Origin: an uncultured Candidatus Saccharibacteria bacterium
Lineage (GTDB): Bacteria > Patescibacteriota > Saccharimonadia > Saccharimonadales > Saccharimonadaceae
DNA length: 64,000 nt
NCBI GenBank assembly: GCA_964499245.1
Contig: CAZCIN010000001.1
Coordinates: 5,106 to 69,105, forward strand
Direction of reading: 5' to 3'
Notes under the pieces: generated by a model
Database searches by the model: none
What the model saw: only the letters and a program-made list of their open reading frames with translations
Told to the model about the DNA's origin: nothing
Shown here: one piece after another, positions 1-28,330 of the stretch
Layout: every line of letters starts with the position of its first letter
Position numbering within the stretch: the stretch's first letter is position 1
Translations under genes and position numbers: made by a program

Positions 1-1
1 C

Positions 2-845: not shown

Positions 846-926
846 GGTGTCTGCTCCTTTCTTTTCTGCGTCACTCTATTAGTCACTCAGGTTGGCATTT
901 CCATCAAGTCTTGATATCATGCCGGA

Positions 927-2322: not shown

Positions 2323-2431
2323 CTGTATCCCACCTCCTTTTTGATTGGCGGCCACGGGAGGCTCTGCGGCACACCGCAGAAAGAAATCCCCGGTGTACCG
2401 CATGCAGTTGTTTCGCTGTTAAAGTTATGCT

Positions 2432-2605: not shown

Positions 2606-3048
2606 CCCCGCACCTCCATACATGTATCTGCCTGCGCAGCTTTCTGGCTGTCGGCAAAACATTTCCGGCAGCAGAACCGTTTATGCGGATTGCCGAAGGC
2701 AGTAAACTCACGCCCGCACTGCTCGCAGACCCGGCTATAAGGGATGCGGCGTTTCTGCTCATTGCCCCATGCGTTCCGGCAGCGGGCTGAACAGAACAGC
2801 TGTTTGCCGCCCAGGGCAGGCTTCTCAAAGTCCCTGCCGCAGTATTTGCATCTGGGCGTAGCGGGCGTCCCCGCGCCCAAAACCACCGCAGGGATAATCT
2901 CATCCGCCTTCGGTGCTTTGCCCATGATATGTCGAAAGGCATAGCGCACAGAACTCTCTCCCCGGCCAAGTTCCCGGCCAATCTGTACAAAACTCTTTCC
3001 CAAAGTCCTCTGTTTCACGATATATTGTTTTTCCTGTTCAGACATCAT
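2602..3048 (-). CDS. HTH plus Cys-rich zinc-finger protein
   Basis: N-terminal SFVQIGRELGRGESSVR helix-turn-helix; CxxC...FCSxxC motif twice. Confidence 0.65.
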   Translation of the reverse strand: MMSEQEKQYIVKQRTLGKSFVQIGRELGRGESSVRYAFRHIMGKAPKADEIIPAVVLGAGTPATPRCKYCGRDFEKPALGGKQLFCSARCRNAWGNEQKRRIPYSRVCEQCGREFTAFGNPHKRFCCRKCFADSQKAAQADTCMEVRG

Positions 3049-3096
3049 GTCTCTTCCCTCCTTCCTGCTATAGCCACGGTGCATAAGTTAAAAATA

Positions 3097-4080
3097 TCAA
3101 AGTGGGCATAGGCAGTCCTCCATATCCAGCTCATCCCGAAGCATGTCGGTAAACTCATCCGGCAGGATTACCGCAAAAACACGCGGGTACTGCGGGAAAG
3201 TCTCACGGATGTGCCGGATCAGCGAACGTTTCCGCGCTTCGTTCTTTACGATCCAGACCACCAGCGGGAATACATCGTCATGCAGGCGCTGTTCGGTGTC
3301 GCTTTTGTAGTATTCATAATAGCGGCGGCATTTTCCGATAATGGTCTGGATGTCCTCAGTGTTCAGGTCTACCTCGATAAACCAGCGCAATTCATACCAT
3401 GCCTCCTCATGGGTCATCCAATCCTGTTTTTCCGTGACAATGGCAAGGTCAGGTTTCAGGATGCGGTTTTTATAACTGCCCTGGTATGGCCGCCAGCAGT
3501 CCGGCTCCACCTGGAGTTCTATAAGTTTCATGTCTTCTTTCTGACAGGTTTCCACCGCCAGCACATAACATTCAGCCACGGAAACAGTATGTGCCAGGGT
3601 TGCAATAGATGGCTCAATGTTACGTTTCCTGATTTCTGGTTCATGGCGGTGTATCTGCAGGATATGCTCGCCGGCTTCGGTCAGGTAATAAATGTATGCC
3701 ATATAGCCACGGCTGCGGCAGTCCACCTTCCGATTGGCGGCGGCAATGAGTCCCAAATCAGACAGAGCTTTCAGGCGGCGGTTGGCAGCGGTCGTGCTGG
3801 CATTTTTACTCGCCCGGCCTGTAAAATAAAGCCGCTGAATCTGTTTTCCGAGGATTGCCCGGCACCGGCAGATGGTGCCAAGAATCTGCCAGTCGAGGTC
3901 GGAGAGTTCCGTCTCCAGTGCAAGCAGGCGCTTTCGGCTGAGCCTTGACGGCGCAGCACTTGTGGCAGGAGATACCGATTCAGAACGGTATCCGTCTTTT
4001 CCCTTATCAGGGGCGGAAGTGCCGCTTTGTGCGCCTTCCGGGAATCCAGTTGTGACTGTGCTGTTCATGGGGTTATTCAT
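3097..4080 (-). CDS. Replication-relaxation (Replic_Relax) family protein
   Basis: Winged-helix N-terminus, LAHTVSVAE, KPDL and FIEVDLNTE motifs. Confidence 0.85.
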   Translation of the reverse strand: MNNPMNSTVTTGFPEGAQSGTSAPDKGKDGYRSESVSPATSAAPSRLSRKRLLALETELSDLDWQILGTICRCRAILGKQIQRLYFTGRASKNASTTAANRRLKALSDLGLIAAANRKVDCRSRGYMAYIYYLTEAGEHILQIHRHEPEIRKRNIEPSIATLAHTVSVAECYVLAVETCQKEDMKLIELQVEPDCWRPYQGSYKNRILKPDLAIVTEKQDWMTHEEAWYELRWFIEVDLNTEDIQTIIGKCRRYYEYYKSDTEQRLHDDVFPLVVWIVKNEARKRSLIRHIRETFPQYPRVFAVILPDEFTDMLRDELDMEDCLCPL

Positions 4081-6253
4081 CCTTCTGCTCCTTCCTGCGG
4101 CGTCCTATGCCGCTCTTTTTGAACCCTTTTGCTTCTTCCTGCGGCGTGGTGGCAGTATCCTGAAATATCCCTTTCAGCTCTGTCTCTACCGCTTCGGCTG
4201 GTGTGCCGTAGCGCGCCATGCTGGCCGCCCTAAGCTCCGCCGCCCCCTGCAGGGGTTCCGGCTTTGGGAGGGTCACGCCCTGCACCCAGCCGGTATTTCT
4301 GCCGCCGCTCTGGAAACTAGCATAGACGTGGTAGCGCATGAGCGAGGCAAAATCCAGCGCCTCCAGCCCGTCAGCCATTGCCGCCATATCCTTGGCGTCC
4401 TTCCCGCTGATGCCGAAAATAATCTTGTTCCGGGCATTGGCATCCACGCCGGAGCGGAGCAGCACCGGCAGCTGGTCACGGTATTGGTGTGCCATGGTAA
4501 TCGCAAGCCCCATGCCCCTTGCCTGCGCCAATGCGTCCGATAAATCGGTTGGCAGTGAGAGGTAATCCTGCAGCTCATCAATGTAGATGCTCACCATTTT
4601 CCGCTTTTCCTGCGGGACATTTGCCCGGCCAAGCGCCAGTGTCCAGGTCAGGCCGACGATCAGTGAGCCAAGCAGCCTTGCAGATTCACCGCCGATAACG
4701 CCTTTATTCAGCGGCACCAGCACAATCTTTGATTCGGTGTAAAGGCTATTTAAGTCAAACTTCGGGTGTCCCTGCCCCAGGCAGTTACGGAGCTTTGGGC
4801 GGAGCAGGAACTGCCGGAGCTTGTTCAAAACGGGCTCGGTCATCTGCTGCCGCTGATATGGGGTCAGGTTCTCAAAACGTGACCAGAAAGGCTTCAGGGC
4901 GATTTCATCTTTTACATTTTTTGTGACGACAGCGCGGAACTTTTCGTTCGTCAGAAGTTCCGGCAGCCACATCAGGGAAGCGCCGTCCACCTCCATGAGT
5001 GTCAGGATGGCAGCCGATAAAATATCCTGTGTGCGGATGCCCCAGCTGTCTGCAAAAATCTCTTTCAAGACTGAAAGTACCGTGTCGGCGGTCAGTTCCT
5101 TGTCCTGCCCCTTTGCACAGGTCAGCGGGTTGAACCCTACCGGCTCCGGGCTGGCCGGATCTATCACCACCACATCTTCTCTGCGGTGCGCGGGAATACG
5201 CTCCAGTACATCATCCACCAGATCCTGCTTCGGGTCGATCACAAGGACACCCCGCCCAGCACCAATATCTGAGAGGATCAGGTTCAGCATGGCGGTAGAC
5301 TTCCCACTCCCCGTAGGCCCTAAAATGATCGTGTGCTCCAGTGCGTCTTTCGGGGAAATACTGAGCCTTTCCCCATTCATGGCAGCCGCAAAGCTCCTGT
5401 CCCCGTTCTTAAACACCGGCTCACTGTACCATCCGGGCGGCAGGGCGGCTTTGGGGTGAAGCGAAACAGTCCCGGGCAGTGCATCCTCGCCTACCGGCAG
5501 GAGCATGAAACCGGAAAGTTCTTTCACCGACAGCCGGAGTGGGAAATGCCATGGCACGCCTGCCCCGGTCAGTTTCTTCGGGTTCTCGCTGGCGGTATAG
5601 ATTTTGACACCTGCCGATTCCAGAATGCGGAAAGCAGCAGTCAGGTTGTGCAGTGGGTCAATATAATCCTTCCAGTTACTGGAGCCGATGCGGATCACCG
5701 CCTGGAACCCGCTCTGTTCGGCTTTTTCCTTTGCCGACTTCACCATGTCGCTGGTGGCTTTCTGTACCGTCCCGGTGATAATCTCCAGCCATGAGGCGTT
5801 CGGATCCTGCATCCCACCAGAGAGCGGCACCGGGCTGTAAGAAGCGCCCAAGACAATCTGTATGGCCAGTTCCTCATTTTCCCCGGTGTTTGCCAGTGCC
5901 GCCAGCCCTGCCCGGAGTACCGCCATGGAAGTGTCCATGTTGAGGGAGAGCAGTTTTTTGGAAGTTTTAAGCTGTGCCGCCCCGGCAGTCTCTTTCCGCG
6001 GGGTCTGACAGATGCTCCCAAAACGGACATCCCCGTGCGCCTTAAAAATGTGTTCTATCTTATCAAGATGCTGGCGTTCCGCGCCGAGCAGGTAACGGAT
6101 TTTACCGCCGCTGCCCCGGCACTCCCACACCACCGCGCCGCGCGGGTGTGTGGCGGCAAGGTGGGAGAGCATACCCCACACCGCTTCAATGGCAAACGGC
6201 CTCTGCCATGCCACTTCCCGCCAGACAAGCTCCTTAAAATCATGTGTACTCAT
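4073..6253 (-). CDS. Type IV coupling protein (VirD4/TraD-like ATPase)
   Basis: Walker A GPTGSGKS, VIDPK, Walker B IYIDELQ, AHQY motif. Confidence 0.85.
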   Translation of the reverse strand: MSTHDFKELVWREVAWQRPFAIEAVWGMLSHLAATHPRGAVVWECRGSGGKIRYLLGAERQHLDKIEHIFKAHGDVRFGSICQTPRKETAGAAQLKTSKKLLSLNMDTSMAVLRAGLAALANTGENEELAIQIVLGASYSPVPLSGGMQDPNASWLEIITGTVQKATSDMVKSAKEKAEQSGFQAVIRIGSSNWKDYIDPLHNLTAAFRILESAGVKIYTASENPKKLTGAGVPWHFPLRLSVKELSGFMLLPVGEDALPGTVSLHPKAALPPGWYSEPVFKNGDRSFAAAMNGERLSISPKDALEHTIILGPTGSGKSTAMLNLILSDIGAGRGVLVIDPKQDLVDDVLERIPAHRREDVVVIDPASPEPVGFNPLTCAKGQDKELTADTVLSVLKEIFADSWGIRTQDILSAAILTLMEVDGASLMWLPELLTNEKFRAVVTKNVKDEIALKPFWSRFENLTPYQRQQMTEPVLNKLRQFLLRPKLRNCLGQGHPKFDLNSLYTESKIVLVPLNKGVIGGESARLLGSLIVGLTWTLALGRANVPQEKRKMVSIYIDELQDYLSLPTDLSDALAQARGMGLAITMAHQYRDQLPVLLRSGVDANARNKIIFGISGKDAKDMAAMADGLEALDFASLMRYHVYASFQSGGRNTGWVQGVTLPKPEPLQGAAELRAASMARYGTPAEAVETELKGIFQDTATTPQEEAKGFKKSGIGRRRKEQKDE

Positions 6254-6266
6254 AATGCTGCCTCCT

Positions 6267-6482
6267 TTACCACCTGTCGCCATGCCGGTTTTTCCAGATA
6301 CGCCAGCCGATAGCTGCTCCGGCTGTCACCGCCGCAATAATGAGCAGCACCCACCAGACTTCGAGGAAGAACTGCACGCCCAGCCGGATCAGGTAGCCGC
6401 TGGCGGCAATGATGACAGCCGCCTCGAAAAGATATCCAATCCACCGGCCGGGGCCGCCCCTGTGGTCTCCACATTCGAACAT
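6267..6482 (-). CDS. Small membrane protein
   Basis: Two hydrophobic segments; sits within the operon. Confidence 0.6.
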   Translation of the reverse strand: MFECGDHRGGPGRWIGYLFEAAVIIAASGYLIRLGVQFFLEVWWVLLIIAAVTAGAAIGWRIWKNRHGDRW

Positions 6483-6488
6483 AAGCCA

Positions 6489-7169
6489 TCACGCTCCCTC
6501 CGTTTTCTTCGTAATATCTTTTGTAGTGTAATCTGCCGATACCGCATTAGCGCATTCCGCTCTTTTCAGGAGATCATATTTCAAAGCGTCACTGTATTGG
6601 GGTACCGGAAAGCCGGGGATAACCACATCGCTTGCGATTTCATTTCCCCAGACGGCCCAGCCGTGGCGGGGACGCCTTGCAAACAGTTCTAAGTATGGGC
6701 CGGGGGATACACGCTCCACGATGTCATAAAATTCCTCCGGCTTATGGGAATGATCCTGTACCGGAAAAAAGCCCCAGTTCGGCTGGCTTTTATATTTTAC
6801 CGGCGCCTTGCCGCGTGTCCCCAGCAGACAGTGTTCTGTGGCATTGCGCAGATATGCCCCCAGCCCGATGCGCGGCTTCACCCATGTAAAGGTTGAACGC
6901 GGCGTAAAACCCCAGACCTCCAGAATGTCATAGCCGATGCGCAGGGTGCCATTCGTCACCCAGAGCCACAGATGGGCATTTTCTTCACAAAGGTCTGCAA
7001 CCGGCAGATCTTTGATCCGAAACGGTTTCAACAGGCTGTAATATCTGACGGCGCCATGCAGCCCATGCTGCAGCACATCCCAGGGCGGGTCGACCACCAC
7101 GGTGGCGGCTCCGTTTGCCAATGTGTCCGGGAATATAGGCATATTTATTGTCATTGCATCAAAACTCAT
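6489..7169 (-). CDS. MT-A70 family adenine methyltransferase (copy 2)
   Basis: VVVDPPW, HLWLWVTN, EHCLLGTRG, HSHKPEEF, LELFARR motifs; start moved to MSFDAM. Confidence 0.9.
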   Translation of the reverse strand: MSFDAMTINMPIFPDTLANGAATVVVDPPWDVLQHGLHGAVRYYSLLKPFRIKDLPVADLCEENAHLWLWVTNGTLRIGYDILEVWGFTPRSTFTWVKPRIGLGAYLRNATEHCLLGTRGKAPVKYKSQPNWGFFPVQDHSHKPEEFYDIVERVSPGPYLELFARRPRHGWAVWGNEIASDVVIPGFPVPQYSDALKYDLLKRAECANAVSADYTTKDITKKTEGA

Positions 7170-7803
7170 AATTTTTCTTCTCCTCTCTGTTTTTGCTGTC
7201 TGGCAAAGCAGACAGAATAGTGCCGCTGTATTTTGGTACTGGAAAACCGGGAACGACCACATCGGAATCAATCTCATTTCCCCAGGCAGCCCAGCCGTGC
7301 CTGCGCCGCCTTGCAAATAACTCCAGGTATGGGCCGGGAGACACACGCTCCACGATGTCATAAAATTCCTCCGGCTTGTGGCTGTGATCCTGTATAGGGA
7401 AAATCCCAACGTTTGGCTGGTTTTTTACCCTGACCGGGGCTTTGCCACGGGTGGCCAGGATGCAGTGTTCGGTGCAGTTTCTCAGGTATACGCCCAGACC
7501 GAGCCGGGGCTTGAACCATGTGAAAATAGAACGGGGTGTGAACCCCCATGCCCTCAGGATGGAGAAACCTTCCTCCATCGTGGCGTTGGTGACCCAGAGC
7601 CAGCAGTGCGCGTTCTCCGCACAGAGGCTTCCGACCGGCAGGGCTTTGATCCGCTCCAGCGTCATGAGTTTATAGTGGTTTACCGCACCATAATTTCCGC
7701 GCTGTTGCACATCCCAGGGCGGGTCAACGATTACCGTGGACGCGCCCTTCGGCATTGTGCCCGGCAGTATGGGAGCCTTTATTTTCATAGCATCAAAAAC
7801 CAT
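7159..7803 (-). CDS. MT-A70 family adenine methyltransferase (copy 1)
   Basis: VIVDPPW, HCWLWVTN, HSHKPEEF, LELFARR motifs. Confidence 0.9.
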   Translation of the reverse strand: MVFDAMKIKAPILPGTMPKGASTVIVDPPWDVQQRGNYGAVNHYKLMTLERIKALPVGSLCAENAHCWLWVTNATMEEGFSILRAWGFTPRSIFTWFKPRLGLGVYLRNCTEHCILATRGKAPVRVKNQPNVGIFPIQDHSHKPEEFYDIVERVSPGPYLELFARRRRHGWAAWGNEIDSDVVVPGFPVPKYSGTILSALPDSKNREEKKNYEF

Positions 7804-7988
7804 GCATTCCTTCCCGACTATTTAATTTTTATTGCCACACCGATTTGACAGGCTGTCAAACCGGCGGGCGATTGGTGCGATTATAACGCCTCCCCGCCAA
7901 AAGCCGTGGAAATATGTAAGTTATGCTTACGCCGTGAGCATAACTTTTACGGTATTGGCATTGCACAGCCCTGTCCATTGGCAGTGTC

Positions 7989-8243
7989 TCAGATATCCTT
8001 ATCCACGGTGTTTTCCCCAAACCCGTGCAGGCAGGCGGCGCTGAACATCTTGCTAAAAGCTTCCATGCCGTCATTGTCCAACAGAAACTCATCCTGGATT
8101 AGCTGACGGAGATACTTGTTTTCTTCCTGCAGATCTGTCAGCCTGCCGGAATTGAAAAAAACTGTATCGACAAGCCAGAGCAGTGCGCTGGCCATCAGCA
8201 GGAGCACAATAATAAGTATAATGATAACTATGTATCCATCCAT
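7989..8243 (-). CDS. Hypothetical protein with N-terminal TM helix
   Basis: ORF with RBS, co-oriented with the operon. Confidence 0.55.
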   Translation of the reverse strand: MDGYIVIIILIIVLLLMASALLWLVDTVFFNSGRLTDLQEENKYLRQLIQDEFLLDNDGMEAFSKMFSAACLHGFGENTVDKDI

Positions 8244-19009: not shown

Positions 19010-19120
19010 ATAGCGTTTATGTTTTTTGGTAGAAAAATCAAGAAAAATGGTCTTGATTGAAGCATTTGGGGCGAAAATATGATATAATTGGAGGAAGATA
19101 ATAAACAAATAAGGAGTTCT

Positions 19121-19636
19121 ATGGGAAAAGAGCGCGATTTGGTGCAACGAAGTTTGGTGGTGTGTAAGCCAGATGCAGTGCAGCGGGGGATTGTGGGGGA
19201 GATTATTCAACGGTTTGAGCGCGTGGGCCTGAAAATTGTGGGTATCAAAATGGTGATGCCGGACGAGGATCACTACCGAGCGCATTATGAGACGATTGGC
19301 AAGATGATCACTCGCCGGGGTGAAGAGGCTTATCGCTATAATTTGCATTATATGATGACCGGGCCGGTGATTGCGATGGTACTAGAGGGTGTCGAAGCGG
19401 TGCCGCTGGTACGGAAGATTGTGGGGCCAACCGAGCCGAAATCGGCAGAGATGGGGACGATTCGCGGGGATTACGCGCACATGAGCTTTGGTTATTCGGA
19501 TGCGAAAGGCATCGGTGTGCCGAACTTGATCCACGCTAGTGGTAGCCCGGAAGAGGCGAAGGAAGAAGTTGCGTTGTGGTTCAAGCCGGAAGAGCTCTAC
19601 GACTACTCGGATCTGAACGAGAAATATACGCGTTAG
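19121..19636 (+). CDS. ndk: Nucleoside diphosphate kinase
   Basis: KPDAVQRG, GPT.P...GTIRGD, NLIHASGS (catalytic His). Confidence 0.95.
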   Translation: MGKERDLVQRSLVVCKPDAVQRGIVGEIIQRFERVGLKIVGIKMVMPDEDHYRAHYETIGKMITRRGEEAYRYNLHYMMTGPVIAMVLEGVEAVPLVRKIVGPTEPKSAEMGTIRGDYAHMSFGYSDAKGIGVPNLIHASGSPEEAKEEVALWFKPEELYDYSDLNEKYTR

Positions 19637-19648
19637 AAATACAAGCGG

Positions 19649-19675
19649 AATCCGTCACGAAAGTGGCGGATTTTT
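19649..19675 (+). terminator. ndk terminator (GAAA tetraloop hairpin plus T5)
   Basis: AATCCGTCAC-GAAA-GTGGCGGATT-TTT; the G.U pair forms on the plus strand. Confidence 0.75.
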
Positions 19676-19870
19676 GCAGCGCAGAGCAAAGCCGAAGCCT
19701 CTAAAATAGCTGTTCTGGGCGTAGACATTACCGGCCCACGTACCCAGGCCGCGTCCGCTAGCAGCCGAACTGGCCGTGCTAGACCACCAGTAGCCATCCG
19801 TAGTACGCGCGTAGAGGTAGCCGTCGGAACGGTAGTAGACGCCGGTACGCAGGAACTGGAGAGGCCAAGG
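19676..19870 (-). pseudogene. Orphan C-terminal fragment of a FISUMP (Fib_succ_major)/C-type-lectin-fold protein, resembling a DGR variable region
   Basis: PWPLQFLRTG...GYWWSST...NSYFRGFGFALRC; no upstream gene body; only 2 of 65 codons end in A. Confidence 0.75.
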
Positions 19871-19876
19871 ATTAAC

Positions 19877-19963
19877 CAGTCCGGAGGACATGAAACAAAG
19901 TTTCATGTCCAGCAAGCAACTTTGTTGCTTGCTCTCAACTCTGAGGAGATGAGTTCCGGACTG
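19877..19963. other. Four-way-junction palindromic element
   Basis: 9-bp closing stem CAGTCCGGA/TCCGGACTG around three abutting hairpins of 11, 10 and 4+3 bp. Confidence 0.85.
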
Positions 19964-20015
19964 AACATTAATACGGTTGTAGTTGGGGACACTGGCACCG
20001 TTATTTAACCTAAGC

Positions 20016-20111
20016 GCTTATCCTTGTAGTTTCTCTCCAATCTGTGCTATACTATTGAGGGGGCCCGATACTTGACTAAAATATGATAATATTGAATAGT
20101 ATTGACTAGGA
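20016..20111 (+). repeat. 96-bp inverted repeat, copy 1 (contains extended -10 TGTGCTATACT)
   Basis: Roughly 90% identical to the reverse complement of 24820-24915 by manual alignment. Confidence 0.92.
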
Positions 20112-20201
20112 GATTGAACTGAGATAATATTAAAAAGGACAGCGGGGCCGTATGGGCACCACTTTCGGCATCATTTAATTAAGGGAAAGGAGGATTCGGG
20201 T

Positions 20202-20270
20202 ATGTCGATTTACTTCGGCTTTACTTTACTGCGCAAACGCTTTGAAGTAAAAATTTCTCTAGCTAAATAA
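20202..20270 (+). CDS. Candidate 22-aa peptide MSIYFGFTLLRKRFEVKISLAK
   Basis: AAGGAGG 8 nt before ATG; stop lies in an 11-bp hairpin; downstream of the repeat promoter. Confidence 0.4.
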   Translation: MSIYFGFTLLRKRFEVKISLAK

Positions 20271-20452
20271 GCTAGAGAAACCAACCTGTCTATATTCTAT
20301 CACCTGCACCGAGTAAGGTCAAGCGTTTATAGCAAGATTTTATGAAGAATTGTATGTGAAGCGGTATAGGCCCTATCCCCGCCGTCCGACCAAAATCTCC
20401 TACCACCGTAAAGCCAAAAGAAAACGCCCCAAAAGAATTTGGGGTGTTTTCT

Positions 20453-20529
20453 TGGTGACCCGGGCGCGAGTCGAACGCGCAACCTTTTCCTTAGGACGGA
20501 ACTGCTCTATCCAATTGAGCTACCAGGCC
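20453..20529 (-). tRNA. tRNA-Arg(CCU)
   Basis: Cloverleaf folded by hand, anticodon CCT, encoded CCA. Confidence 0.92.
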
Positions 20530-20571
20530 ATGCCTTATATTATACCATATTCAGAAGTTAGAACGAAGCTA

Positions 20572-20635
20572 ATAACCCTTTGCTCGGGCCGCTCCGGGGA
20601 GAAAGCCCAAGTCCTACTCCCTCATAAATGGTTAT
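20572..20635 (+). repeat. Dispersed hairpin repeat, copy a
   Basis: Core CTCGGGCCGCTCCGGGGAGAAAGCCCAAGTC in an ATAACC/GGTTAT stem. Confidence 0.75.
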
Positions 20636-20665
20636 CAGCTTCGCTTCAGCACCGATACGGTTTAA

Positions 20666-21409
20666 TTATTTCGACTCGGGGTCGTAGTTGGCGATACCCT
20701 CGGTGATGGCATTCGGAGCGATATTGAGGGTGGTGGCGATGGCAGCGGCGCAGGCCATATAGCCAATAACCGGCTCGCCGGTGAGGAAGCTGGCAACCGT
20801 GAAGGCCTGGCGACCAAAGCTGAGGCTGGCTTCGCAACCTTTGCGATAGAGCTTGGAATAATCAATCCGGAGATCAGAATCGGAAGACGCGCCATAGGTC
20901 AGAGTCTCAGTCTTGCCACGGAATTTGGCGAAATCGGCATAATGGGAATCGTCACGATTGAGGACAACGCTTTCTGGCTGCATCTCGAAAAGCGAAGATT
21001 GAGCGCCTAGATAGCCCGCAAGATCTTCGTCGGCGAGGCCGGTGGGTGCAAAATCAGTGAGGGCAGCGACATGGATTGGTAAGCCATAAAACGTATCAGC
21101 GGCAAGCGACTCGGCCGGCGCGGTGATGATAGCGTAGGTGACCTTGGCCTTCCAAGCGTCGTTCAAAAAGCGGTGCAAAACAGAGGCCTTGATGGCCTTC
21201 TCAGAAGCTAAAATCGCGGCCGGCTGCTTGGCGACGGCAAGAATTTCGTGGATATAGTGCGCCACGGTGACTTTGCCGGTAGTGCCGGTGATGCAAATAA
21301 GTTTAAGATCTCGCGCTGGGTGCCCATAGTAGGAGGCTAGAAGCTTCACCTTCGCGCGTTCGAGGCGAAACCGCTTTTTACCTCCAGAAAGTTTCGCAGT
21401 TTGTTCCAT
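20666..21409 (-). CDS. Mur-ligase central-domain protein (truncated MurE-like)
   Basis: RDLKLICITGTTGKVT, VVLNRDD, TYG motifs; no C-terminal ligase domain; start moved to MEQTAK. Confidence 0.75.
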   Translation of the reverse strand: MEQTAKLSGGKKRFRLERAKVKLLASYYGHPARDLKLICITGTTGKVTVAHYIHEILAVAKQPAAILASEKAIKASVLHRFLNDAWKAKVTYAIITAPAESLAADTFYGLPIHVAALTDFAPTGLADEDLAGYLGAQSSLFEMQPESVVLNRDDSHYADFAKFRGKTETLTYGASSDSDLRIDYSKLYRKGCEASLSFGRQAFTVASFLTGEPVIGYMACAAAIATTLNIAPNAITEGIANYDPESK

Positions 21410-21624
21410 AATTTGATTATAGCACAGATAATAGAGATTGACCCCAATTTGCGTGAATTGAGGGCGATTTGGCGATGAATTTGGCAATTTTCTCAAGAAA
21501 AAATATATTTTTACTCTATCACTTTTCTTAAAATGTGCTATAATGATGGTATTGTAAGTTTTACAATGCCCTTTTAATCTTTGGTGGATGTCGTAGCGCT
21601 CAGCGCGAAAATATCCACACATGT

Positions 21625-21701
21625 GTGCCCGTAGCTCAGCTGGATAGAGCGTTAGCTTGCGGAGCTAAAGGTCGTAGGTTCGAATCCTGTCGGGCATACC
21701 A
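21625..21701 (+). tRNA. tRNA-Arg(GCG)
   Basis: Cloverleaf, anticodon stem TTAGC/GCTAA around TTGCGGA, encoded CCA. Confidence 0.93.
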
Positions 21702-21745
21702 TAGAAAATACCTTACTTTCACGAGTAAGGTATTTTCTATGGTAT
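21696..21745. terminator. 22-bp perfect hairpin overlapping the tRNA 3' end
   Basis: ATACCATAGAAAATACCTTACT / AGTAAGGTATTTTCTATGGTAT. Confidence 0.75.
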
Positions 21746-21950
21746 ATTTCGTAGGGGTCGATATCGGAGCCATTTATGGCAAGGTTCGTTATCGAACGAA
21801 GTGAGATGCGGAGCGCAAGCAGAGCTTTCCTGTCGGGCATACTAAGACTACCATCTAGTCGTACTAGATAGCTTATATTTCCATATTAGCACAGATTTGT
21901 ATTTTTGTCAACCACTAGTTTTTTAGAAGAGGGTCTGATATAATAAGGTT

Positions 21951-23753
21951 ATGTTTGAGGGTACTACGGGTGGGCCGGACGGCATGACGGCGACGGAGAA
22001 GCGACAGCTGGAGATTATTCGATATTTTATGCCGCGGCTAACAGCGGAGGCGAACCGCATTGCGACTGAAAAAGCAAAAATGGCCGCGAAAGAAGCAGCG
22101 AAAAATGCAAAGACGGATGCGGAACGGGCAGCGGCGGCTCAGCAACAGACCGTGCAACTTTTGCCAGAACAGCCGGATCCGGCAGTGGCACGGCAGATGT
22201 TTCTCGCGGCACTGAGAGATGGACAGATTACTACGGCGGACGAAAACGAATACCTGCTGAGCTTGCCGTCGCAGTTAGAACGATATGGTGAACAGCGGAT
22301 TTTTGACGAAATCGCCGGGAGATTGCGTGATAAGCAGATCCTAGCAATAGTGACGGGTTTCACAACGAAAAATTGGCAGGACGTGAAGGCGGCAGACGTG
22401 AAAACATTCCTGAGCAATCCGCGACGAGGGCAGGAAGATTACCGAACGCCAGTAGGATTTGCGGATCTGAGACGAAAGTTCTTGTCGGAAATTCATCCGA
22501 TTGCTAGCCCGAAGCAATTTGACGACTATGTGCGTTCGATGAACGAGCTGGAAAACGCGCTTTACGGACCGCGATTTGCAGGGTTTAAGCAGTTTGAGAC
22601 TTTGCGCAAAGAAGCGATGGCGCTGGGGCAGGATTATGAGGCGAGCTTGGTAACAGAGACGGATCCATCGCTTGACCCGGCCCTTGGCGGGAGCGCAAGT
22701 GGAGAGACGCCAATGCTAGCAAAGGCACTGCACGAAACAACGTTGACGCCGATTGAGACAGAGGTGGGTGATCAGATTTTGAACCGGGCGACGATTGATG
22801 GTGATGTTTGGAAGCAGGGTGGTCAGGAATATTCACTTAGCATACCGAATTTGATCAGCGCAGGGCTAAATCCAGCCTATCATATTTTGGTGGCTAATCA
22901 GGAAATCTATCTATCAAATCTCTTTAATTTGACAAGCGATCAAATGGCGGCGATTGCTTATATCCCGACGACAGTAGGGGTGAAAGTACGGTCATTTTAT
23001 CGCGATAAAGCACAGGCACTGTGGCGATATTTGCCGGATTATGTCCGTGGGATTAACGGTGAAGGAATTGATATTTTTGGGAGTGGATTTGACGAGCGGT
23101 CGATTATTTTGCCGATTGCTTTGCAATCAGCGTTGAATCAGATTGAGCGATACCGAGGGATTGTGGATCTTTCCGGCACGAATCCGGATTTCCTATTCGC
23201 GGGGACAGCGATGGCGTATAATTCGCGCCAAGAATATCGCGAGGCGTTCCAGCGAGGGCTGATGCGGGGGGACTTCTACCGTGAAGTGTCGCCGACCGCG
23301 ATGAACGCGGAACAATCGTCGACAACCGAGCCGGGGCATCGCAAAGTGGCTCCACAGCTATTGTCGGTGGCGGAAAGCTTTGCACCAGATTTTGAGAGAT
23401 TGATTGCGAGATATTCAGTTTATTCGACTTTTGCGGGGCAGATTATGGGCGAGGGATATGTTTCGCACGACGCGCAGTATTATTGGCTATTTTCGACGGA
23501 TTATCGAGGACGAAGTTGGGTAGCAAATATTGAGACGAATGCGATGGTGACGTCGACGGGATGCCGGCAGGAGTGGCTGGCGCCGGTCGATATTACGACG
23601 CCGCTTTATGAGGCGCTGAGGCTGGCGGATGGTTATGGCGATCCAAGCGACACGCGGACGGGCAATTATATTTCGATGTGGAATAATTATCTTGCGAAAG
23701 TGCCACTGATTCAAAATTATACGGCGGTGGTGAAAGCAAGTTCAGAAAACTAG
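21951..23753 (+). CDS. Hypothetical 600-aa protein
   Basis: Long ORF with TGA-TATAAT 6 nt before ATG; no recognisable motif. Confidence 0.8.
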   Translation: MFEGTTGGPDGMTATEKRQLEIIRYFMPRLTAEANRIATEKAKMAAKEAAKNAKTDAERAAAAQQQTVQLLPEQPDPAVARQMFLAALRDGQITTADENEYLLSLPSQLERYGEQRIFDEIAGRLRDKQILAIVTGFTTKNWQDVKAADVKTFLSNPRRGQEDYRTPVGFADLRRKFLSEIHPIASPKQFDDYVRSMNELENALYGPRFAGFKQFETLRKEAMALGQDYEASLVTETDPSLDPALGGSASGETPMLAKALHETTLTPIETEVGDQILNRATIDGDVWKQGGQEYSLSIPNLISAGLNPAYHILVANQEIYLSNLFNLTSDQMAAIAYIPTTVGVKVRSFYRDKAQALWRYLPDYVRGINGEGIDIFGSGFDERSIILPIALQSALNQIERYRGIVDLSGTNPDFLFAGTAMAYNSRQEYREAFQRGLMRGDFYREVSPTAMNAEQSSTTEPGHRKVAPQLLSVAESFAPDFERLIARYSVYSTFAGQIMGEGYVSHDAQYYWLFSTDYRGRSWVANIETNAMVTSTGCRQEWLAPVDITTPLYEALRLADGYGDPSDTRTGNYISMWNNYLAKVPLIQNYTAVVKASSEN

Positions 23754-24491
23754 TTCTGCTAAATTGATGCCAGTAACTTTATAGAAACCTTTGAACTGAG
23801 GAGAGCGGTTGATTTCGATAATGACAAGTGAGCCGTCGTCAAGCACGGCTAGATCAACGCCGACGAAATCAAGCTCCGGGAATTTGGCCATGGCTCTCTT
23901 CACGAAGTCCATTTGCTCATCGGTGAGCTGATGTTCGCCGATGACTTTGACGCCCTGAGATTCAGTCTTGCTAGTGCGAGTCTCAGCAGTGCGGAAAACC
24001 TGACCGTTAAGATAGAAAACACGCATTTCTTGAGCAATGTTGACACGGCGCTGGATAATGTAGCTATCAAGATTAGCACCCTCGGGAATCTCAAAGTGAA
24101 CATCACGACAACGGCAGGAAATGCGCTTTTTAACGATCATTTTGCCGGGAATAAATTCTTGTTCCCTGGCGAGCCAAGTTTCGGGCATGAAATCTTTACC
24201 GAATTGATAAAACTGGCGCCATTTATCCTCGATATAAAAGTCTTCGACAGTGTGGACGTGGTCGATGGAATAACAATCGGGGTTGTCGTGGAAGAATTGA
24301 GTGGTGATTTCCTCAAGGCGGCTATCTAGGGTAGGGTCGGTGGGGTCGTTGAAGGGATCGCGGAAATAGACCTTGTCGAACTGCGGAAAAGTGGCAGGGA
24401 GTTCGTCGTTGTAATAGTAGATGGCGTCGACGTTTGGTTCCCAAAGCGGAAGGGCAAGGTCGGCGTGAGTGGTGAATAAGGCTGATTTCAT
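23742..24491 (-). CDS. ATP-grasp (RimK-like) ligase
   Basis: IVKKR, IIQRRV...EMRVF, FVGVDL...IIEINRSPQF motifs. Confidence 0.75.
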   Translation of the reverse strand: MKSALFTTHADLALPLWEPNVDAIYYYNDELPATFPQFDKVYFRDPFNDPTDPTLDSRLEEITTQFFHDNPDCYSIDHVHTVEDFYIEDKWRQFYQFGKDFMPETWLAREQEFIPGKMIVKKRISCRCRDVHFEIPEGANLDSYIIQRRVNIAQEMRVFYLNGQVFRTAETRTSKTESQGVKVIGEHQLTDEQMDFVKRAMAKFPELDFVGVDLAVLDDGSLVIIEINRSPQFKGFYKVTGINLAELVF

Positions 24492-24819
24492 AAGGATATT
24501 ATAACACATGCTTTATGGTGAATGGGGTATTGTGGTGGATGGCGGGCTTGCTCTATCGCCTCACTCGCAAATCCAAGCTCTTGACGGAACTTGGTAGCCG
24601 TGATAGGATAGAGGTAGGTTTATTGGCGGTTCCGTTTTAGCGGGATCGCTTTTGTGTAGATTCTAGTCCCAGTGAGACTATTCTCTAACACAGCACTAAG
24701 GCTTTTTATTTCTAGCGGTTGCACTGCATCTACCTTTCTCCCCTCATTAGCTTTTTAATTTACTCGTAGACGCTTCGCATAGCGCCCGCCATCCTTTTCA
24801 ATATTACCCTAGTTTATCA

Positions 24820-24915
24820 TCCTAGTCAATACTATTCAATATTATTATAATTTAGTCAAATATCGGGCCCCCTCAATAGTATAGCACAGATTGAGAGAAA
24901 ACTACAAGGGTAAGC
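24820..24915 (-). repeat. 96-bp inverted repeat, copy 2
   Basis: Reverse complement of 20016-20111; weaker similarity continues about 45 bp inward. Confidence 0.92.
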
Positions 24916-24974
24916 AATATTTTTATATGTTGTAGATTAATATAATCGACACAGCGCAGAGCAAATGATAAGCC

Positions 24975-25047
24975 CACACTGGCTTTTCTCGACCTTGCGC
25001 TCCAGGCCGCGCGGCCAAGTCTTTACGGTCTTCAAAAAGCCAGTGTG
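24975..25047 (+). repeat. Dispersed hairpin repeat, copy b
   Basis: Core CTCGACCTTGCGCTCCAGGCCGCGCGGCCAAGTC in a CACACTGGCTTTT/AAAAGCCAGTGTG stem. Confidence 0.85.
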
Positions 25048-25129
25048 AAACCTATCATCTTTCTAGTACAGCATATACCATTAAAATCCAAAATGGAGAC
25101 AGATCGGGGGGGCGATACTGTCTCCATTT

Positions 25130-25206
25130 TGGTGGCGGGAGTTGGATTTGAACCAACGACCTTTTGGTTATGAGCCAAACGAGCTACCAGGCTGCTCTAT
25201 CCCGCG
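25130..25206 (-). tRNA. Initiator tRNA-fMet(CAU)
   Basis: C1:C72 mismatch, A11-U24, anticodon CAT, encoded CCA; terminator hairpin at 25088-25132. Confidence 0.9.
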
Positions 25207-25306
25207 ACATGTGTTCATTATATCGCAAGACGCGAAAAAATGCAAGAGTTTTCTTGAAACAAAATTCAACCCCGCTTTGTGGGCGGGGCTGGTGGAACTA
25301 AAATAC

Positions 25307-26531: not shown

Positions 26532-28330
26532 GAGTGTTTATGCTTATTTTGCAATTCTGGCAAAGATTTGGTGGAATTTTTTGAGATTTTGACAGTTTTT
26601 CGGGGATTTGACAAGGTTGACGAGTTTGAGTGGATCGTGGCATAGCTGGGTAGGAAAATATAGTATAACAGGGGTGGGAGAAGGTAGATGTGAAGAGCGT
26701 TGGGGAGGCCGGCGAAGAATTGCAGAGAGAGGAGATAGGCGGTGATAAGAGCGACGAGGAAGGGGAGATTTTGAGGGTTTTTGAGGGGCTTTGAGCGGAA
26801 GGCGAAATAGAGGGCGGCGAGGAGAAGGGCGACACCGAAAAGACCGGTCTCGAGGAGGAGGGAGATGGGCTGATTTTGGACGATTTCTTTGGGGCTGGGG
26901 TTATTCACGGGGTCGAAACGGTGCATGGCGACGCCGGCACCACCGAGACCAACGCCGAAGATCATGGTGGCTGGAGACTGAGACCAGGTGGCAAGGGCGG
27001 CGGAATTAAGGCCGAGACGAACATCGGTGGAATCGGCGACGTAACCATCAAATATGGGGGCAGGCAACTCGTCTTCAGATACGGTAACGCTCTCTGGACG
27101 CTCCCTGCGGGTGGCGTCCAGACCCGCGTTAGCCTGACCATCAGTACCTTCAGACAACCTCCCTGCCCCCTCATCGATGGTTGTGCTACCATCGTCCGGC
27201 TCGGTCTGACTATTTGTGCGAAAATCCAAGAAGCCGAGGGAAAGCTGGTGAATGGATTTAGTAACGGCGGAGGTGAAAGTCTCAGAAGTGGGGCCGAAAT
27301 GAGCGAAAGTTCCCTGTAAGCCGAGCGAAAGGAGGAAAGTGGCGACGGGAATAATAATGAGGGCGGGGCGGAAGGTGTGGCGACACAGGGTGAAGATAAT
27401 TAAAATAAGAAGGCCAAGGGCGTAGGAATAGATGGCGCCACGGGAAAAAGTGAAGAAAAGCGTAGTAGAAAATAAAATTGCACAGACGACAAGAGGGAGT
27501 TTTACGGAAGTTTTGCGCAGGTGTGGAAAAGTGGTTGTGGTTTGTTCGGCTCTTATATGTTCGGTTTTTGCGCGGTGTTCGGTTTTATTGGGGTGGGGTG
27601 TGGTTTCGCTGGTGGTTTGGCAGAGAAGGTAGAGAGCAAGAAGGGTGGGGGCGAGGAGGAGATTACCCATGAATTGCGGCTCGATGGCGAAGCCATTGGG
27701 ATGGGGGAAGCCGAAGGAGCGATAAGTGCAGCCGGCGCAGAGGAGAGTGGTTTCGCGGGAGAGGCCACAGGAATCGAGTATAGACTGGATAAAGCAAAAG
27801 AGGCATACCACAGCGGTGCTTACGAAGAAGGCCCCGAGGACCCAAATTTTGAGCTCTCGTGGGGGTTCTAGCCGGGGCGAGAGGCGGAGGATAGCAAAAA
27901 TGGCGAAAAAGAGGAGCCAGAGGATGCCGGCGGTGAGGATAGTGCGGAGGGGGTTGGCGGACCAGAAGACTGACAGGGTGGCATAGAGAGGAAAAAGCAA
28001 CCATAGTAGAAACTTTGTGACGTCTTTTCTCGAGCTGCGCTCCGGGGCGCGCGCCCGAGTCTTTATGCTCTCGAAAAGAGCCGCAAAGTTCCCTCTACTA
28101 ACTTTTTCCGCTTTGGGGCGCTGATCCAAGTCTTTACGGTCTCGAAAAAGCACCACAAAGTTGATGAAAGCAATAAGGTCGAAGAGGATGAGCCAGAGGA
28201 GCGGGAGGGAGAGCTCGAAATTCATGGAAGAATTGGCGCCGAGAGAGATGATGGGGTAATAGGAGAAAAAGAGGACGGCGGGGAGGGCGACAAGCAGGGC
28301 GAAATAGGCCATGCGGAAGAATTTAGACAT
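26528..28330 (-). CDS. O-antigen ligase/polymerase-like polytopic membrane protein with low-complexity insertions
   Basis: Many TM helices, PNGFAIEPQFMGN, TFSRGA, GVGLGG, LHIY motifs; start moved to MSKFF overlapping the upstream stop. Confidence 0.75.
   Translation of the reverse strand: MSKFFRMAYFALLVALPAVLFFSYYPIISLGANSSMNFELSLPLLWLILFDLIAFINFVVLFRDRKDLDQRPKAEKVSRGNFAALFESIKTRARAPERSSRKDVTKFLLWLLFPLYATLSVFWSANPLRTILTAGILWLLFFAIFAILRLSPRLEPPRELKIWVLGAFFVSTAVVCLFCFIQSILDSCGLSRETTLLCAGCTYRSFGFPHPNGFAIEPQFMGNLLLAPTLLALYLLCQTTSETTPHPNKTEHRAKTEHIRAEQTTTTFPHLRKTSVKLPLVVCAILFSTTLFFTFSRGAIYSYALGLLILIIFTLCRHTFRPALIIIPVATFLLSLGLQGTFAHFGPTSETFTSAVTKSIHQLSLGFLDFRTNSQTEPDDGSTTIDEGAGRLSEGTDGQANAGLDATRRERPESVTVSEDELPAPIFDGYVADSTDVRLGLNSAALATWSQSPATMIFGVGLGGAGVAMHRFDPVNNPSPKEIVQNQPISLLLETGLFGVALLLAALYFAFRSKPLKNPQNLPFLVALITAYLLSLQFFAGLPNALHIYLLPPLLYYIFLPSYATIHSNSSTLSNPRKTVKISKNSTKSLPELQNKHKHS
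28011..28162 (+). repeat. Dispersed hairpin repeat, copy c plus a partial second unit, in frame inside a CDS
   Basis: Core CTCGAGCTGCGCTCCGGGGCGCGCGCCCGAGTC; second CCAAGTCTTTACGGTCTCGAAAAAG. Confidence 0.8.

What the first reader, a model, noticed from the sequence alone, without database searches (positions are those of the whole stretch)
19676..20017. Orphan DGR-variable-region-like FISUMP cassette with no gene body and no reverse transcriptase in view
Seen: 65 codons reading PWPLQFLRTGVYYRSDGYLYARTTDGYWWSST...NSYFRGFGFALRC on the minus strand, with only 2 of 65 codons ending in A, stopping abruptly at RC against a GAAA-loop hairpin. The open frame extends up to 20017 and is cut exactly where the 96-bp repeat begins. 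Known: FISUMP/C-type-lectin C-termini are DGR targets in CPR, and variable regions derived from AAY template codons are rich in NNY codons. It is not AAC-rich, so it resembles a variable region rather than a template. Inference: a silent donor cassette for surface-protein variation, an ectopically homed cDNA, or a decayed DGR target.
Basis: partly seen in the sequence, partly recalled or inferred. Interest (0 to 1): 0.75.

Follow-up and report, generated by a model that had tools for sequence, protein, structure and literature searches.

The report
Gene-less DGR variable-region cassette, one of dozens
This short stretch is a genuine target repeat of a diversity-generating retroelement, but it has no gene attached; the same small gut Saccharibacteria genome carries about 25-45 such scattered copies, while the reverse transcriptase, the template and (in a relative) the full-length surface-protein gene lie elsewhere.

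Summary
Window 19676-19870(-) reads as the C-terminal about 65 residues of a FISUMP-type domain, ends at ...ALRC, and is followed by a hairpin.

It is a DGR variable region (VR), not a template.
- In the four runs that hold this genome, a contig at the same depth carries a DGR-type reverse transcriptase with a convergent template repeat (TR).
- The window VR differs from that TR at 14 positions. All 8 that can be resolved are TR adenines.
- A related contig (L050) shows the canonical locus: a 571-aa FISUMP surface protein with this VR, a 344-aa accessory ORF, the RT, and an inverted TR. There, 17 of 18 mismatches are at TR adenines.

The window copy is not that gene.
- It is one of a dispersed family of about 235-nt VR-only cassettes: 43 in one Saccharibacteria MAG and roughly 25 in the window's own genome.
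- About half have no in-frame start codon.
- Cassettes share about 45 nt of gene-derived 5' sequence that the TR lacks, so they are not homed cDNA.
- Orthologous cassettes differ 13-18% while their flanks differ 1-8%.
- Identical VRs occur at different loci in one genome.

I read them as a DGR-linked, recombining archive of VR variants. That function is inferred, not shown. This is a new variant of a known kind.

The parts
19676..19858 (-). Variable region proper: 183 nt (CAGTTCCTGCG...GCTCTGCGCTGC) homologous to the DGR template repeat. It encodes QFLRTG...GFALRC.
   Evidence: Aligns to the TR of L044 and L050. The TR-bearing contig of the window's own genome matches 19676-19782 with 14 differences, and all 8 resolvable ones are at TR adenines.
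19859..19867 (-). TGGCCTCTC: the proximal part of the 5' extension. All cassettes and the full-length target gene share it, but the TR does not.
19868..19965 (-). 98-nt structured insertion present in a subset of cassettes. It forms a four-way junction with terminal inverted repeats CAGTCCGGA/TCCGGACTG and a TTAAT duplication. It contains the only ATG (19904-19906).
   Evidence: The joint 19867->19966 in other copies skips it. Nine copies were found, all inside cassettes. MFE is -53.8 kcal/mol, z = -9.7. Six base pairs show compensatory changes. No Rfam match.
19966..19999 (-). Distal part of the 5' extension (GGTGCCAGTGTCCCCAACTACAACCGTATTAATG, encoding GASVPNYNRIN). It is homologous to ...GASTPNYNHINE... 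of the full-length target.
19649..19672 (-). Hairpin starting 3 nt after the end of the VR (stem 6+3 bp, loop TTTC, which reads GAAA on the + strand). It sits where the DGR target-recognition hairpin would be.
   Evidence: Strong hairpins follow about a third of the cassettes, against 19% of control windows.
19655..19915 (-). The only ORF over the cassette: 86 aa from TTG, or 83 aa from the ATG at 19906. It starts inside the insertion and has no recognisable ribosome-binding site.
   Evidence: P0001. AlphaFold2 gave mean pLDDT 35.
20018..20020 (-). TAA that closes the frame upstream. No gene body lies beyond it.
20016..20146 (-). 131-nt repeat directly upstream of the cassette, with a second, inverted copy at 24785-24915. 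It is multi-copy in the genome and contains a TAGCACAGAT motif that recurs upstream of genes.
   Evidence: Depth is about 13-15x that of the flanks. One further copy was found in L027.

Best explanation
Identity (about 0.9 confidence).
- The segment is a variable-region repeat of a diversity-generating retroelement (DGR).
- The retroelement lies elsewhere in the same genome. It consists of a conserved 344-436-aa accessory ORF, a DGR-clade reverse transcriptase, and a template repeat in convergent orientation.
- The template carries AAC/AAT codons at about 20 positions. Error-prone copying at template adenines rewrites the first two bases of those codons in VR copies and resets all other positions. 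This gives the invariant scaffold with NNC/NNT codons.
- The primary target, seen in relative L050, is a 571-aa secreted FISUMP/C-type-lectin-like surface protein that carries this VR at its C-terminus.

The window copy.
- It is not the primary target. It is one of about 25-45 dispersed VR-only cassettes of about 235 nt.
- Each cassette holds about 45 nt of gene-derived 5' sequence, the 183-nt VR, and the GC-rich end, often followed by a hairpin.
- The cassettes sit between unrelated genes, and about half have no in-frame start codon.

Function (inferred, about 0.4).
- The cassettes form a library of VR variants.
- The library is fed by the DGR, either directly in trans or through the expressed gene.
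- It exchanges sequence by homologous gene conversion, among cassettes and with the expressed gene, using the shared 5' extension and 3' end.
- This would combine DGR mutagenesis with a silent-cassette archive for the episymbiont's host-binding protein.

Shown: the repeat family, TR, RT, adenine bias, lack of a gene body, hypervariability at orthologous loci, and identical VRs at different loci.
Inferred: that the window copy is still homed, that it donates to or receives from the expressed gene, and any benefit.
For: Dispersed family.
- 43 exact anchor matches in one MAG, plus copies in other genomes.
- Depth over the cassette is 10-35x that of its flanks in the window's own runs.

DGR signature across 49 unique copies.
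- About 20 codons vary at positions 1 and 2 only. The third position is fixed, and synonymous scaffold sites are nearly invariant.

Template and reverse transcriptase.
- Found in L044.
- The RT matches Pfam RVT_1, shows 27% identity to Brt (E 8e-25) with the IGNLTSQL and YVDD motifs, and its best PDB match is Brt, 8ub7.

Same genome as the window.
- A 2730-nt contig carries the TR end, a spacer, the RT and the accessory ORF.
- Its depth matches the window's in four runs: 46/860/672-740/341-376 against 48/814-872/720-762/353-357.
- All 8 resolvable differences between window VR and TR fall on TR adenines.

Canonical locus with a full-length target.
- L050; 17 of 18 mismatches are at adenines. 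L001: 18 of 18.

No gene body.
-.

The 5' extension is absent from the TR but present in the target gene.
-.

Turnover and exchange.
- Orthologous cassettes differ at 30-33 of 183 positions while flanks are 92-99% identical.
- L047 and L048 are 98.8% identical over 12.5 kb, yet each orphan VR carries its own set of 23 and 29 mismatches to the TR.
- In rat-gut strains the ndk-side contig enters this cassette and then diverges.
- Six pairs of VRs with 0-3 differences sit at different loci.
- The DGR-adjacent VR in L044 carries about 12 non-adenine alleles typical of orphan cassettes, by my reading.

Signs of past protein-level selection.
- Adenines in structural Tyr/Thr/Gln codons are retained in 88-100% of copies, against 47% at the one fully synonymous adenine.
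- Scaffold changes are 47% nonsynonymous, against 72% expected.
Against: - No read-level data were available, only assembled contigs. Active homing at this locus is therefore not shown. The VR is identical in the four samples that hold this genome.
- Six of the 14 VR/TR differences could not be resolved because they lie near a contig end.
- Orphan cassettes carry a median of 9 non-adenine differences to the available TRs, and they are heterogeneous at non-adenine sites within one genome. Many have therefore not been overwritten recently by the present TR, which fits relics as well as an archive.
- Only about a third have a strong downstream hairpin.
- The full-length target was seen in a relative (L050), not in the window's own genome.
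- Retention of structural adenines could reflect site-specific fidelity of the RT rather than selection.
- No Avd-like accessory protein was found.
- Transcription evidence is weak: low-depth contigs from one metatranscriptome.
Confidence: 0.6

Rival explanations
1. Passive relics. The cassettes are solo VRs left by duplications and deletions of the target gene's 3' end. They have no role. They look diversified because each froze a past VR state, or because they are occasionally hit by the DGR or by recombination.
For: - Half have no start codon.
- A median of 9 non-adenine differences to the TR, and heterogeneity within one genome.
- Ragged 5' ends.
- Some copies have indels, duplications or truncations.
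- The isolated peptide has no confident fold.
- L001 and L020 show truncated or rearranged FISUMP genes.
Against: - 25-45 copies, about 1% of a roughly 1-Mb reduced genome, are kept at orthologous loci across MAGs.
- The frame is open in 55 of 56 complete copies.
- The 5' extension, which the TR cannot repair, is still nearly identical among copies.
- VRs at orthologous loci change about 10 times faster than their flanks.
- Identical VRs at different loci show ongoing copying.
Confidence: 0.3
2. Mini-genes. The cassettes, or those with a start codon such as the window's 83-86-aa ORF beginning in the insertion, are translated into small DGR-diversified binding modules.
For: - About 17 of 57 copies have an in-frame ATG, and all insertion-bearing copies start MK(L/Q)(C/S)F(M/I)PSG.
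- The roughly 75-aa unit occurs as a tandem repeat in giant proteins, so it may fold independently.
- Structural adenines are retained.
Against: - No conserved ribosome-binding site or signal peptide.
- The ATG lies inside an 11-bp hairpin. Compensatory changes there preserve the hairpin while the peptide changes.
- About half the copies cannot be translated, yet they show the same retention of structural adenines.
- AlphaFold2 mean pLDDT is 35.
- The 84-aa 'MTNPNG' proteins proved to be cut gene calls of the 571-aa protein.
Confidence: 0.08
3. The fragment is the template repeat (TR), or a second template, of a DGR rather than a VR.
For: It is intergenic, follows a repeat element that may carry a promoter, and has structured RNA beside it.
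Against: - It has TAC, GAC, GGC, GGT and similar codons where the real TRs have AAC/AAT.
- The TR of its own genome is on another contig, next to the RT.
- It carries the gene-derived 5' extension that TRs lack.
Confidence: 0.01
4. An ectopically integrated DGR cDNA, that is, a retro-copy of the TR.
For: The 3' end is fixed and the 5' ends are somewhat ragged across copies.
Against: Every copy extends about 30-45 nt beyond the 5' limit of the TR, into sequence that matches the target gene (NYNRINEWPL) and not the TR leader.
Confidence: 0.03

Closest known systems
Canonical diversity-generating retroelements (Bordetella phage BPP-1 mtd/avd/TR/brt; Treponema denticola TvpA; Legionella LdtA)
   Same: - A TR/VR pair of about 190 nt.
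- Mismatches at template adenines in AAY codons.
- An RT of the Brt clade.
- The VR forms the C-terminus of a lectin-like ligand-binding domain.
- A GC-rich VR end followed by a hairpin.
   Different: - Here most VRs have no gene.
- There are tens of VRs per genome, all remote from the RT.
- The TR is convergent with the RT.
- There is no Avd; a conserved 344-436-aa ORF with no known family precedes the RT instead.
DGRs with several or remote targets (CPR/DPANN, cyanobacteria, multicellular bacteria). A 2024 survey found up to 6 target genes per MAG (PMC11661182). Roux et al. 2021 note that remote targets are missed by contig-based detection (PMC8144416).
   Same: One RT/TR serves VRs scattered over the chromosome. 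The host is a Patescibacteria member with a reduced genome.
   Different: In those systems the VRs lie inside complete target genes. Here 25-45 VRs are bare cassettes. The count is also several-fold above the numbers reported in the papers read here.
Silent-cassette antigenic variation (Neisseria pilE/pilS; Mycoplasma genitalium MgPa repeats; Treponema pallidum tprK donor sites; Borrelia vls). This comparison rests on my own knowledge.
   Same: - Truncated copies without their own start codon (about half) of the variable part of one expressed surface protein.
- They are dispersed in a small host-associated genome.
- They share flanking homology.
- There is evidence of copying between loci.
   Different: - Diversity in those systems comes from recombination alone. 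Here the variable codons carry the adenine-mutagenesis signature of a retroelement.
- Transfer into the expression site has not been shown here.

Membership tests
Diversity-generating retroelement (VR component) | A DGR-clade reverse transcriptase in the same genome | tested here: met
   No RT lies in the window. A 2730-nt contig at the window's depth in four runs aligns to the L044 accessory ORF and RT at about 84% identity. The L044 RT matches RVT_1, hits Brt at E 8e-25, and has the IGNLTSQL and YVDD motifs.
Diversity-generating retroelement (VR component) | A near-identical template repeat (TR) paired with the VR | tested here: met
   The end of the same contig matches window 19676-19782 with 14 differences. 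Full TRs were read in L044 and L047-L050.
Diversity-generating retroelement (VR component) | TR/VR mismatches confined to TR adenines | tested here: met
   - Window against its own TR: 8 of 8 resolvable mismatches are at adenines; 6 are unresolved.
- L050: 17 of 18. L001: 18 of 18.
- Window against the heterologous L044 TR: 20 of 39. The lower share is as expected for a TR from a different lineage.
Diversity-generating retroelement (VR component) | VR located at the 3' end of a protein-coding target gene | tested here: not met
   The window cassette has a stop 50 codons upstream and no gene body. About half of 57 copies have no in-frame start. The feature is met only by the primary target in L050, a 571-aa protein.
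Diversity-generating retroelement (VR component) | Cis elements for homing: a GC-rich IMH-like end and a downstream hairpin | tested here: inconclusive
   The GCTCTGCGCTGC end and the hairpin at 19649-19672 are present. Hairpins are only modestly enriched across copies. Whether they function cannot be tested here.
Diversity-generating retroelement (VR component) | An accessory variability determinant (Avd) next to the RT | tested here: not met
   The ORF upstream of the RT is 344-436 aa and is conserved (53% identity between L044 and L045). It has no Pfam, NCBIfam or PDB match.
Diversity-generating retroelement (VR component) | Ongoing diversification of this VR | tested here: inconclusive
   - The VR is identical in four samples of one study.
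- Related rat-gut strains diverge within the VR while the flanks match.
- Other orthologous cassettes differ 13-18%.
- No raw reads were available.
FISUMP / Fib_succ_major domain (PF09603, TIGR02145) | A significant match to the family model | tested here: inconclusive
   - The fragment itself gets no hit.
- A profile built from the cassettes finds the C-termini of P0057, P0100 and P0157. Their PF09603 hits are below the curated cut-off: 33.6, 26.9 and 27.3 bits against 33.9.
- P0084 scores 86 bits.
- The L050 target is listed as Fib_succ_major (weak).
- The cassette corresponds to roughly the last 60-80 positions of the model.
Silent-cassette gene-conversion systems (pilS-like, MgPar-like) | Truncated copies of the variable part of one expressed gene, plus an expression locus | tested here: met
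   The cassettes are documented. The expression locus was seen in the relative L050. In the window's genome, the RT contig runs to within about 240 nt of the position where L044 has a VR upstream of the accessory ORF. A VR there is expected but was not read.
Silent-cassette gene-conversion systems (pilS-like, MgPar-like) | Segmental transfer from cassettes into the expression locus | not testable with these tools
   Only indirect hints exist: identical VRs at different loci and orphan-type non-adenine alleles in the L044 DGR-adjacent VR. A real test needs long reads or a time series.

The most novel reading that the evidence does not exclude
A retroelement-fed archive. A DGR in an ultra-small episymbiont maintains, genome-wide, dozens of gene-less variable-region cassettes. 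These store variants, including variants already tested by selection, and trade them with the single expressed adhesin gene by gene conversion. Hypermutation and a silent-cassette memory would then be joined in one system.
Probability: 0.35. Interest if true: 0.9.

Novelty: new variant of a known kind. Interest (0 to 1): 0.75.

Why it matters
DGRs are understood as rewriting the end of one or a few complete genes. A lineage in which most VRs are bare cassettes, about one per 20 kb in a roughly 1-Mb genome, would change that picture in three ways.
- DGR surveys that require the VR to lie in an ORF or near the RT would undercount targets.
- DGR cis-recognition may work on non-coding DNA.
- A reduced-genome epibiont may pair hypermutation with a stored repertoire for host attachment.

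The finding also makes a concrete question testable: do orphan VRs receive cDNA, donate sequence, or do neither?

It also explains why assemblies of these Saccharibacteria break at these sites.

Tried and rejected
- Second copy or TR in the window: none. blastn and tblastn found only a 14-nt match at 24952-24965, which lies in the arm of an unrelated long hairpin.
- Pfam and NCBIfam on the fragment: no hit.
- Rfam on 19500-25300 at E<=10: only tRNAs and noise.
- RT motif and Brt tblastn scans of the window and about 314 kb of cassette-bearing loci: nothing.
- Viral contigs scan for the anchor: 0 hits, so there is no sign the family is phage-borne.
- Exact look-ups of the window's Ndk and of P0001: not on record.
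- TR search in L045, a related canonical-looking locus: none within 10 kb either side.
- AlphaFold2 of the 83-aa product: pLDDT 35, uninformative. No fold search was run.
- The 84-aa 'MTNPNG' mini-protein idea was rejected once L050 showed that it is internal to a 571-aa protein.
- An apparent signal peptide in P0016 was rejected because the DNA there is the upstream gene's terminator hairpin.
- The promoter consensus scan found no sigma-70-like site on the - strand inside the 131-nt repeat. My promoter reading of TAGCACAGAT is only an inference.
- Two register errors in my own scripts made the automatic counts unusable. I read the printed sequences by eye instead.
- Literature searches found no description of dispersed orphan VRs in Saccharibacteria.

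Full report
**1. The observation**

On the - strand, 19676-19870 reads PWPLQFLRTGVYYRSDGYLYARTTDGYWWSST...NSYFRGFGFALRC. Of its 65 codons only GGA and AGA end in A.

The open frame runs from a TAA at 20018-20020 to a TGA at 19655-19657. It therefore continues six codons past RC. What stops at RC is the homology to the repeat family.

A hairpin (AATCCGCCAC-TTTC-GTGACGGATT, 19649-19672) follows 3 nt later. Upstream, the frame ends at a 131-nt repeat (20016-20146) whose inverted copy lies at 24785-24915.

Neighbours are ndk (19088-19636, +), a radical-SAM/SPASM gene, tRNA-Arg(CCT) (20453-20529, -) and a Mur-ligase-like gene. There is no second copy of the 195 nt in the window and no reverse transcriptase.

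**2. A dispersed family**

A protein search returned 35 homologues at 64-78% identity, all 78-129 aa, none with a Pfam domain. Their alignment shows an invariant scaffold, WPLQFLRTGxYxRSYGYLxxRTTxGYWWSxTAGSATxGRxLxTWTGNVxAQxNxFRGxGFALRC, broken by discrete hypervariable columns.

A 20-nt scaffold anchor found 38 stretches among representative genomes, all uncultured Saccharibacteria. Forty-three matches lie on 15 contigs of one mouse-gut MAG (MGBC122299), about one per 20 kb. Two 20-kb loci from other assemblies hold 3 and 5 anchor-matched copies; a blastn search found a fourth copy in L001.

The cassettes lie in unrelated intergenic contexts and in both orientations.

In the four runs that hold the window's own genome, contig depth over the scaffold is 10-35x that of the flanks. 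Over the anchor it is about 23-29x. This organism therefore has roughly 25 copies too.

**3. The variation pattern**

I analysed 49 unique copies.
- About 20 codons vary at positions 1 and 2, with all four bases.
- Their third position is fixed as C or T.
- Scaffold columns, including synonymous sites, are nearly invariant.

This is what adenine-directed rewriting from a common AAY-rich template produces.

**4. Template and reverse transcriptase**

A metagenome scan with an Asn-rich version of the scaffold gave one contig, L044. It carries:
- a 427-aa ORF with IGNLTSQL and YVDD motifs;
- a repeat downstream of it, convergent in orientation, with AAC/AAT at every variable codon.

The ORF matches Pfam RVT_1. 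It aligns to Bordetella Brt at 27% identity (E 8e-25), and its best solved-structure match is Brt, far ahead of a group II maturase. A 346-aa ORF with no known family precedes it. That ORF is 53% identical to the one in L045, whose RT is 72% identical.

**5. The same genome as the window**

In runs X1-X4 a 2730-nt contig has depths of 46, 860, 672-740 and 341-376. The window's contigs have 48, 814-872, 720-762 and 353-357.

The contig aligns to the L044 accessory ORF and RT. After a shorter spacer it runs into the TR. Its first 107 nt lie on window 19676-19782 with 14 differences.

I separated the contigs by depth. The TR contig differs from the window at 19708, 19723, 19735, 19743, 19744, 19749, 19750 and 19758, and in every case it reads T on the + strand, which is A in the sense strand. 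The other six differences lie within 30 nt of the contig end and are not listed.

So the window VR reads TAT, TAC, GCC, GGT, GGC and AGC where its own TR reads AAT, AAC, ACC, AAT, AAC and AAC.

**6. The canonical locus**

An RT 100% identical to the L044 RT occurs on 24 contigs. One of them, L050, is complete. It reads, in order:
- a 571-aa protein with a signal-peptide-like N-terminus and a weak Fib_succ_major hit, ending ...SICPRGWQLP...RTYGMTNPNGASTPNYNHINEWPLQFLRTG...GFALRCVAR;
- the 344-aa accessory ORF;
- the RT;
- the inverted TR.

VR and TR differ at 18 positions within the repeat, 17 of them at TR adenines. The equivalent VR in L001 differs at 18 positions, all at TR adenines.

The many 84-aa 'MTNPNG...' proteins are cut calls of this gene. 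In most assemblies the contig breaks in the VR.

The cassettes begin at about ...GASTPNYNRINEWPL, which is 30-45 nt upstream of where TR homology starts (CAGTTCC). They are therefore copies of the gene's 3' end, not of the TR or its cDNA.

FISUMP homology rests on relatives:
- the cassette profile matches the C-termini of P0057, P0100 and P0157;
- the roughly 75-aa unit is repeated in tandem in larger proteins such as P0084 (976 aa, 10 stretches, PF09603 at 86 bits), and the profile also matches giant proteins of up to 6,311 aa in 12-13 stretches.

**7. Are the orphan cassettes coding?**

- Of 57 copies, about half have no ATG, GTG or TTG in the short open frame upstream, which is usually closed 10-20 codons before the cassette.
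- The window copy has no start before the insertion. Its only ORF (83-86 aa) begins inside a hairpin of the insertion.
- AlphaFold2 on that product, with the 35-sequence alignment, gave mean pLDDT 35.

**8. Dynamics**

- Orthologous cassettes in different MAGs differ at 30-33 of 183 VR positions, 19-23 of them at TR adenines. Their flanks are 92-99% identical.
- L047 and L048, which encode the identical RT protein, are 98.8% identical over 12.5 kb. Their orphan VRs differ from the TR at 23 and 29 aligned positions, 15 and 19 of them at adenines.
- In rat-gut strains the ndk-side contig enters this very cassette and then stops aligning for about 120 nt.
- Within one genome, six pairs of VRs with 0-3 differences sit at different loci.
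- Orphans carry a median of 19 adenine-site and 9 non-adenine differences to the TR, the latter at recurrent positions. This suggests older or alternative TR alleles, and infrequent overwriting.
- By my reading, the DGR-adjacent VR in L044 carries about 12 of these orphan-type non-adenine alleles. That is a hint, not proof, of exchange with the cassettes.

**9. Selection or bias**

- Adenines in structural codons (TAC, ACG, ACC, CAG) are retained in 88-100% of copies, including copies that cannot be translated.
- The one fully synonymous TR adenine (TCA) is retained in 47%.
- AAY codons retain A in 10-82%.
- Scaffold substitutions are 47% nonsynonymous, against 72% expected.

Three explanations fit. 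The variants may have passed through a translated gene, the template itself may be under coding constraint, or the RT may be more faithful at some adenines. I cannot separate these.

**10. Mechanism**

Shown: this is a DGR VR repeat without a gene, one of dozens in the genome. The RT, TR and accessory ORF lie elsewhere in the same genome, and a full-length target exists in a close relative.

Inferred: the cassettes form a library fed by the DGR that recombines through the shared 5' extension and 3' end (about 0.4). The main rival is that they are functionless relics (about 0.3). Mini-proteins are unlikely (under 0.1).

**11. Comparison and novelty**

The system works like a canonical DGR, with these differences:
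- gene-less, remote and very numerous VRs;
- a convergent TR;
- a non-Avd accessory ORF.

The papers read here report up to 6 target genes per MAG and note that remote targets escape contig-based surveys. An earlier Saccharibacteria comparison noted at most one DGR per genome. I found no description of dispersed orphan VRs. I rate it a new variant of a known kind.

**12. Limits**

All run data were assembled contigs, so there is no read-level variation. The window's own primary target and the full TR were not recovered. Copy numbers from summed contig depth are approximate. The TRs used for the family-wide spectrum come from related strains.

Noticed in passing
window 19868-19965 (-); also L002, L008, L013, L032, L036, L038, L041, L042: A 98-nt insertion sits at one fixed site in a subset of cassettes. 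It folds as a four-way junction (-53.8 kcal/mol, z = -9.7) with six compensatory base pairs, terminal inverted repeats and a TTAAT duplication. It has no Rfam match and was seen only inside cassettes. It supplies an ATG buried in an 11-bp hairpin.
   Followed up: partly
window 24948-25062 and 58945-59001 (partial copy 28126-28151); L007 492-523 and 4578-4610; L011 572-603; L033 852-905: A conserved core of about 57 nt (TTTTTGAAGACCGTAAAGACTTGGCCGCGCGGCCTGGAGCGCAAGGTCGAGAAAAG) sits in the loop of long hairpins. The outer stems differ in sequence but stay complementary. In other genomes it abuts cassette ends. The 14-nt 'FALRC' match at 24952-24965 is part of one hairpin arm. No Rfam match.
   Followed up: partly
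window 20016-20146 and 24785-24915; motif also at 18986, 21418 and 21885: A 131-nt repeat (85% identity, inverted pair) has about 13-15x depth in the genome's runs. It contains a TAGCACAGAT motif that also precedes ndk, tRNA-Arg(GCG) and a 600-aa ORF. This may be a lineage-specific promoter or leader. The simple sigma-70 scan does not call it.
   Followed up: partly
L044 378-1418; L045 12150-13460; L047-L050: A conserved 344-436-aa ORF overlaps the start of the DGR RT in these Saccharibacteria. It has no Pfam, NCBIfam or PDB relative and is not Avd-like in size. It is a candidate new DGR accessory protein.
   Followed up: partly
L044 2815-3009 (-); L047-L050: The template repeat lies downstream of the RT and is convergent with it, not upstream in the same direction as in the prototype. 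A leader of about 230 nt precedes the TR.
   Followed up: no
L003 3388-3569; L008 567-683; L010 1644-1717; L041 1251-1493: A second family of gene-less FISUMP-like cassettes (FPLNFLRTGYYNYSDGKVYYRTAAGSWWAATRSS...GFGFAVRGV) lies convergent to family-1 cassettes, in repeated composite units.
   Followed up: no
L001 9839-10255; L020 5554-6249: Two rearranged FISUMP genes. In L001 the target gene is cut at ...WQLP and abuts the 3' end of a UvrD-like gene, and no RT lies within 10 kb. L020 has a 231-aa hybrid FISUMP ORF directly followed by a cassette that lacks the 5' extension.
   Followed up: no
window 20252-20322 (-): A good sigma-70-like promoter (TTGACC-17-TAGAAT, with TG) is followed at once by a 13-bp hairpin and a T run. 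It lies between tRNA-Arg(CCT) and the 131-nt repeat and may be a small RNA or an attenuator.
   Followed up: no
window 1-8000 versus the rest: G+C is 53-57% in the first 8 kb and 41-51% in most of the rest. GC skew changes sign near 14 kb.
   Followed up: no
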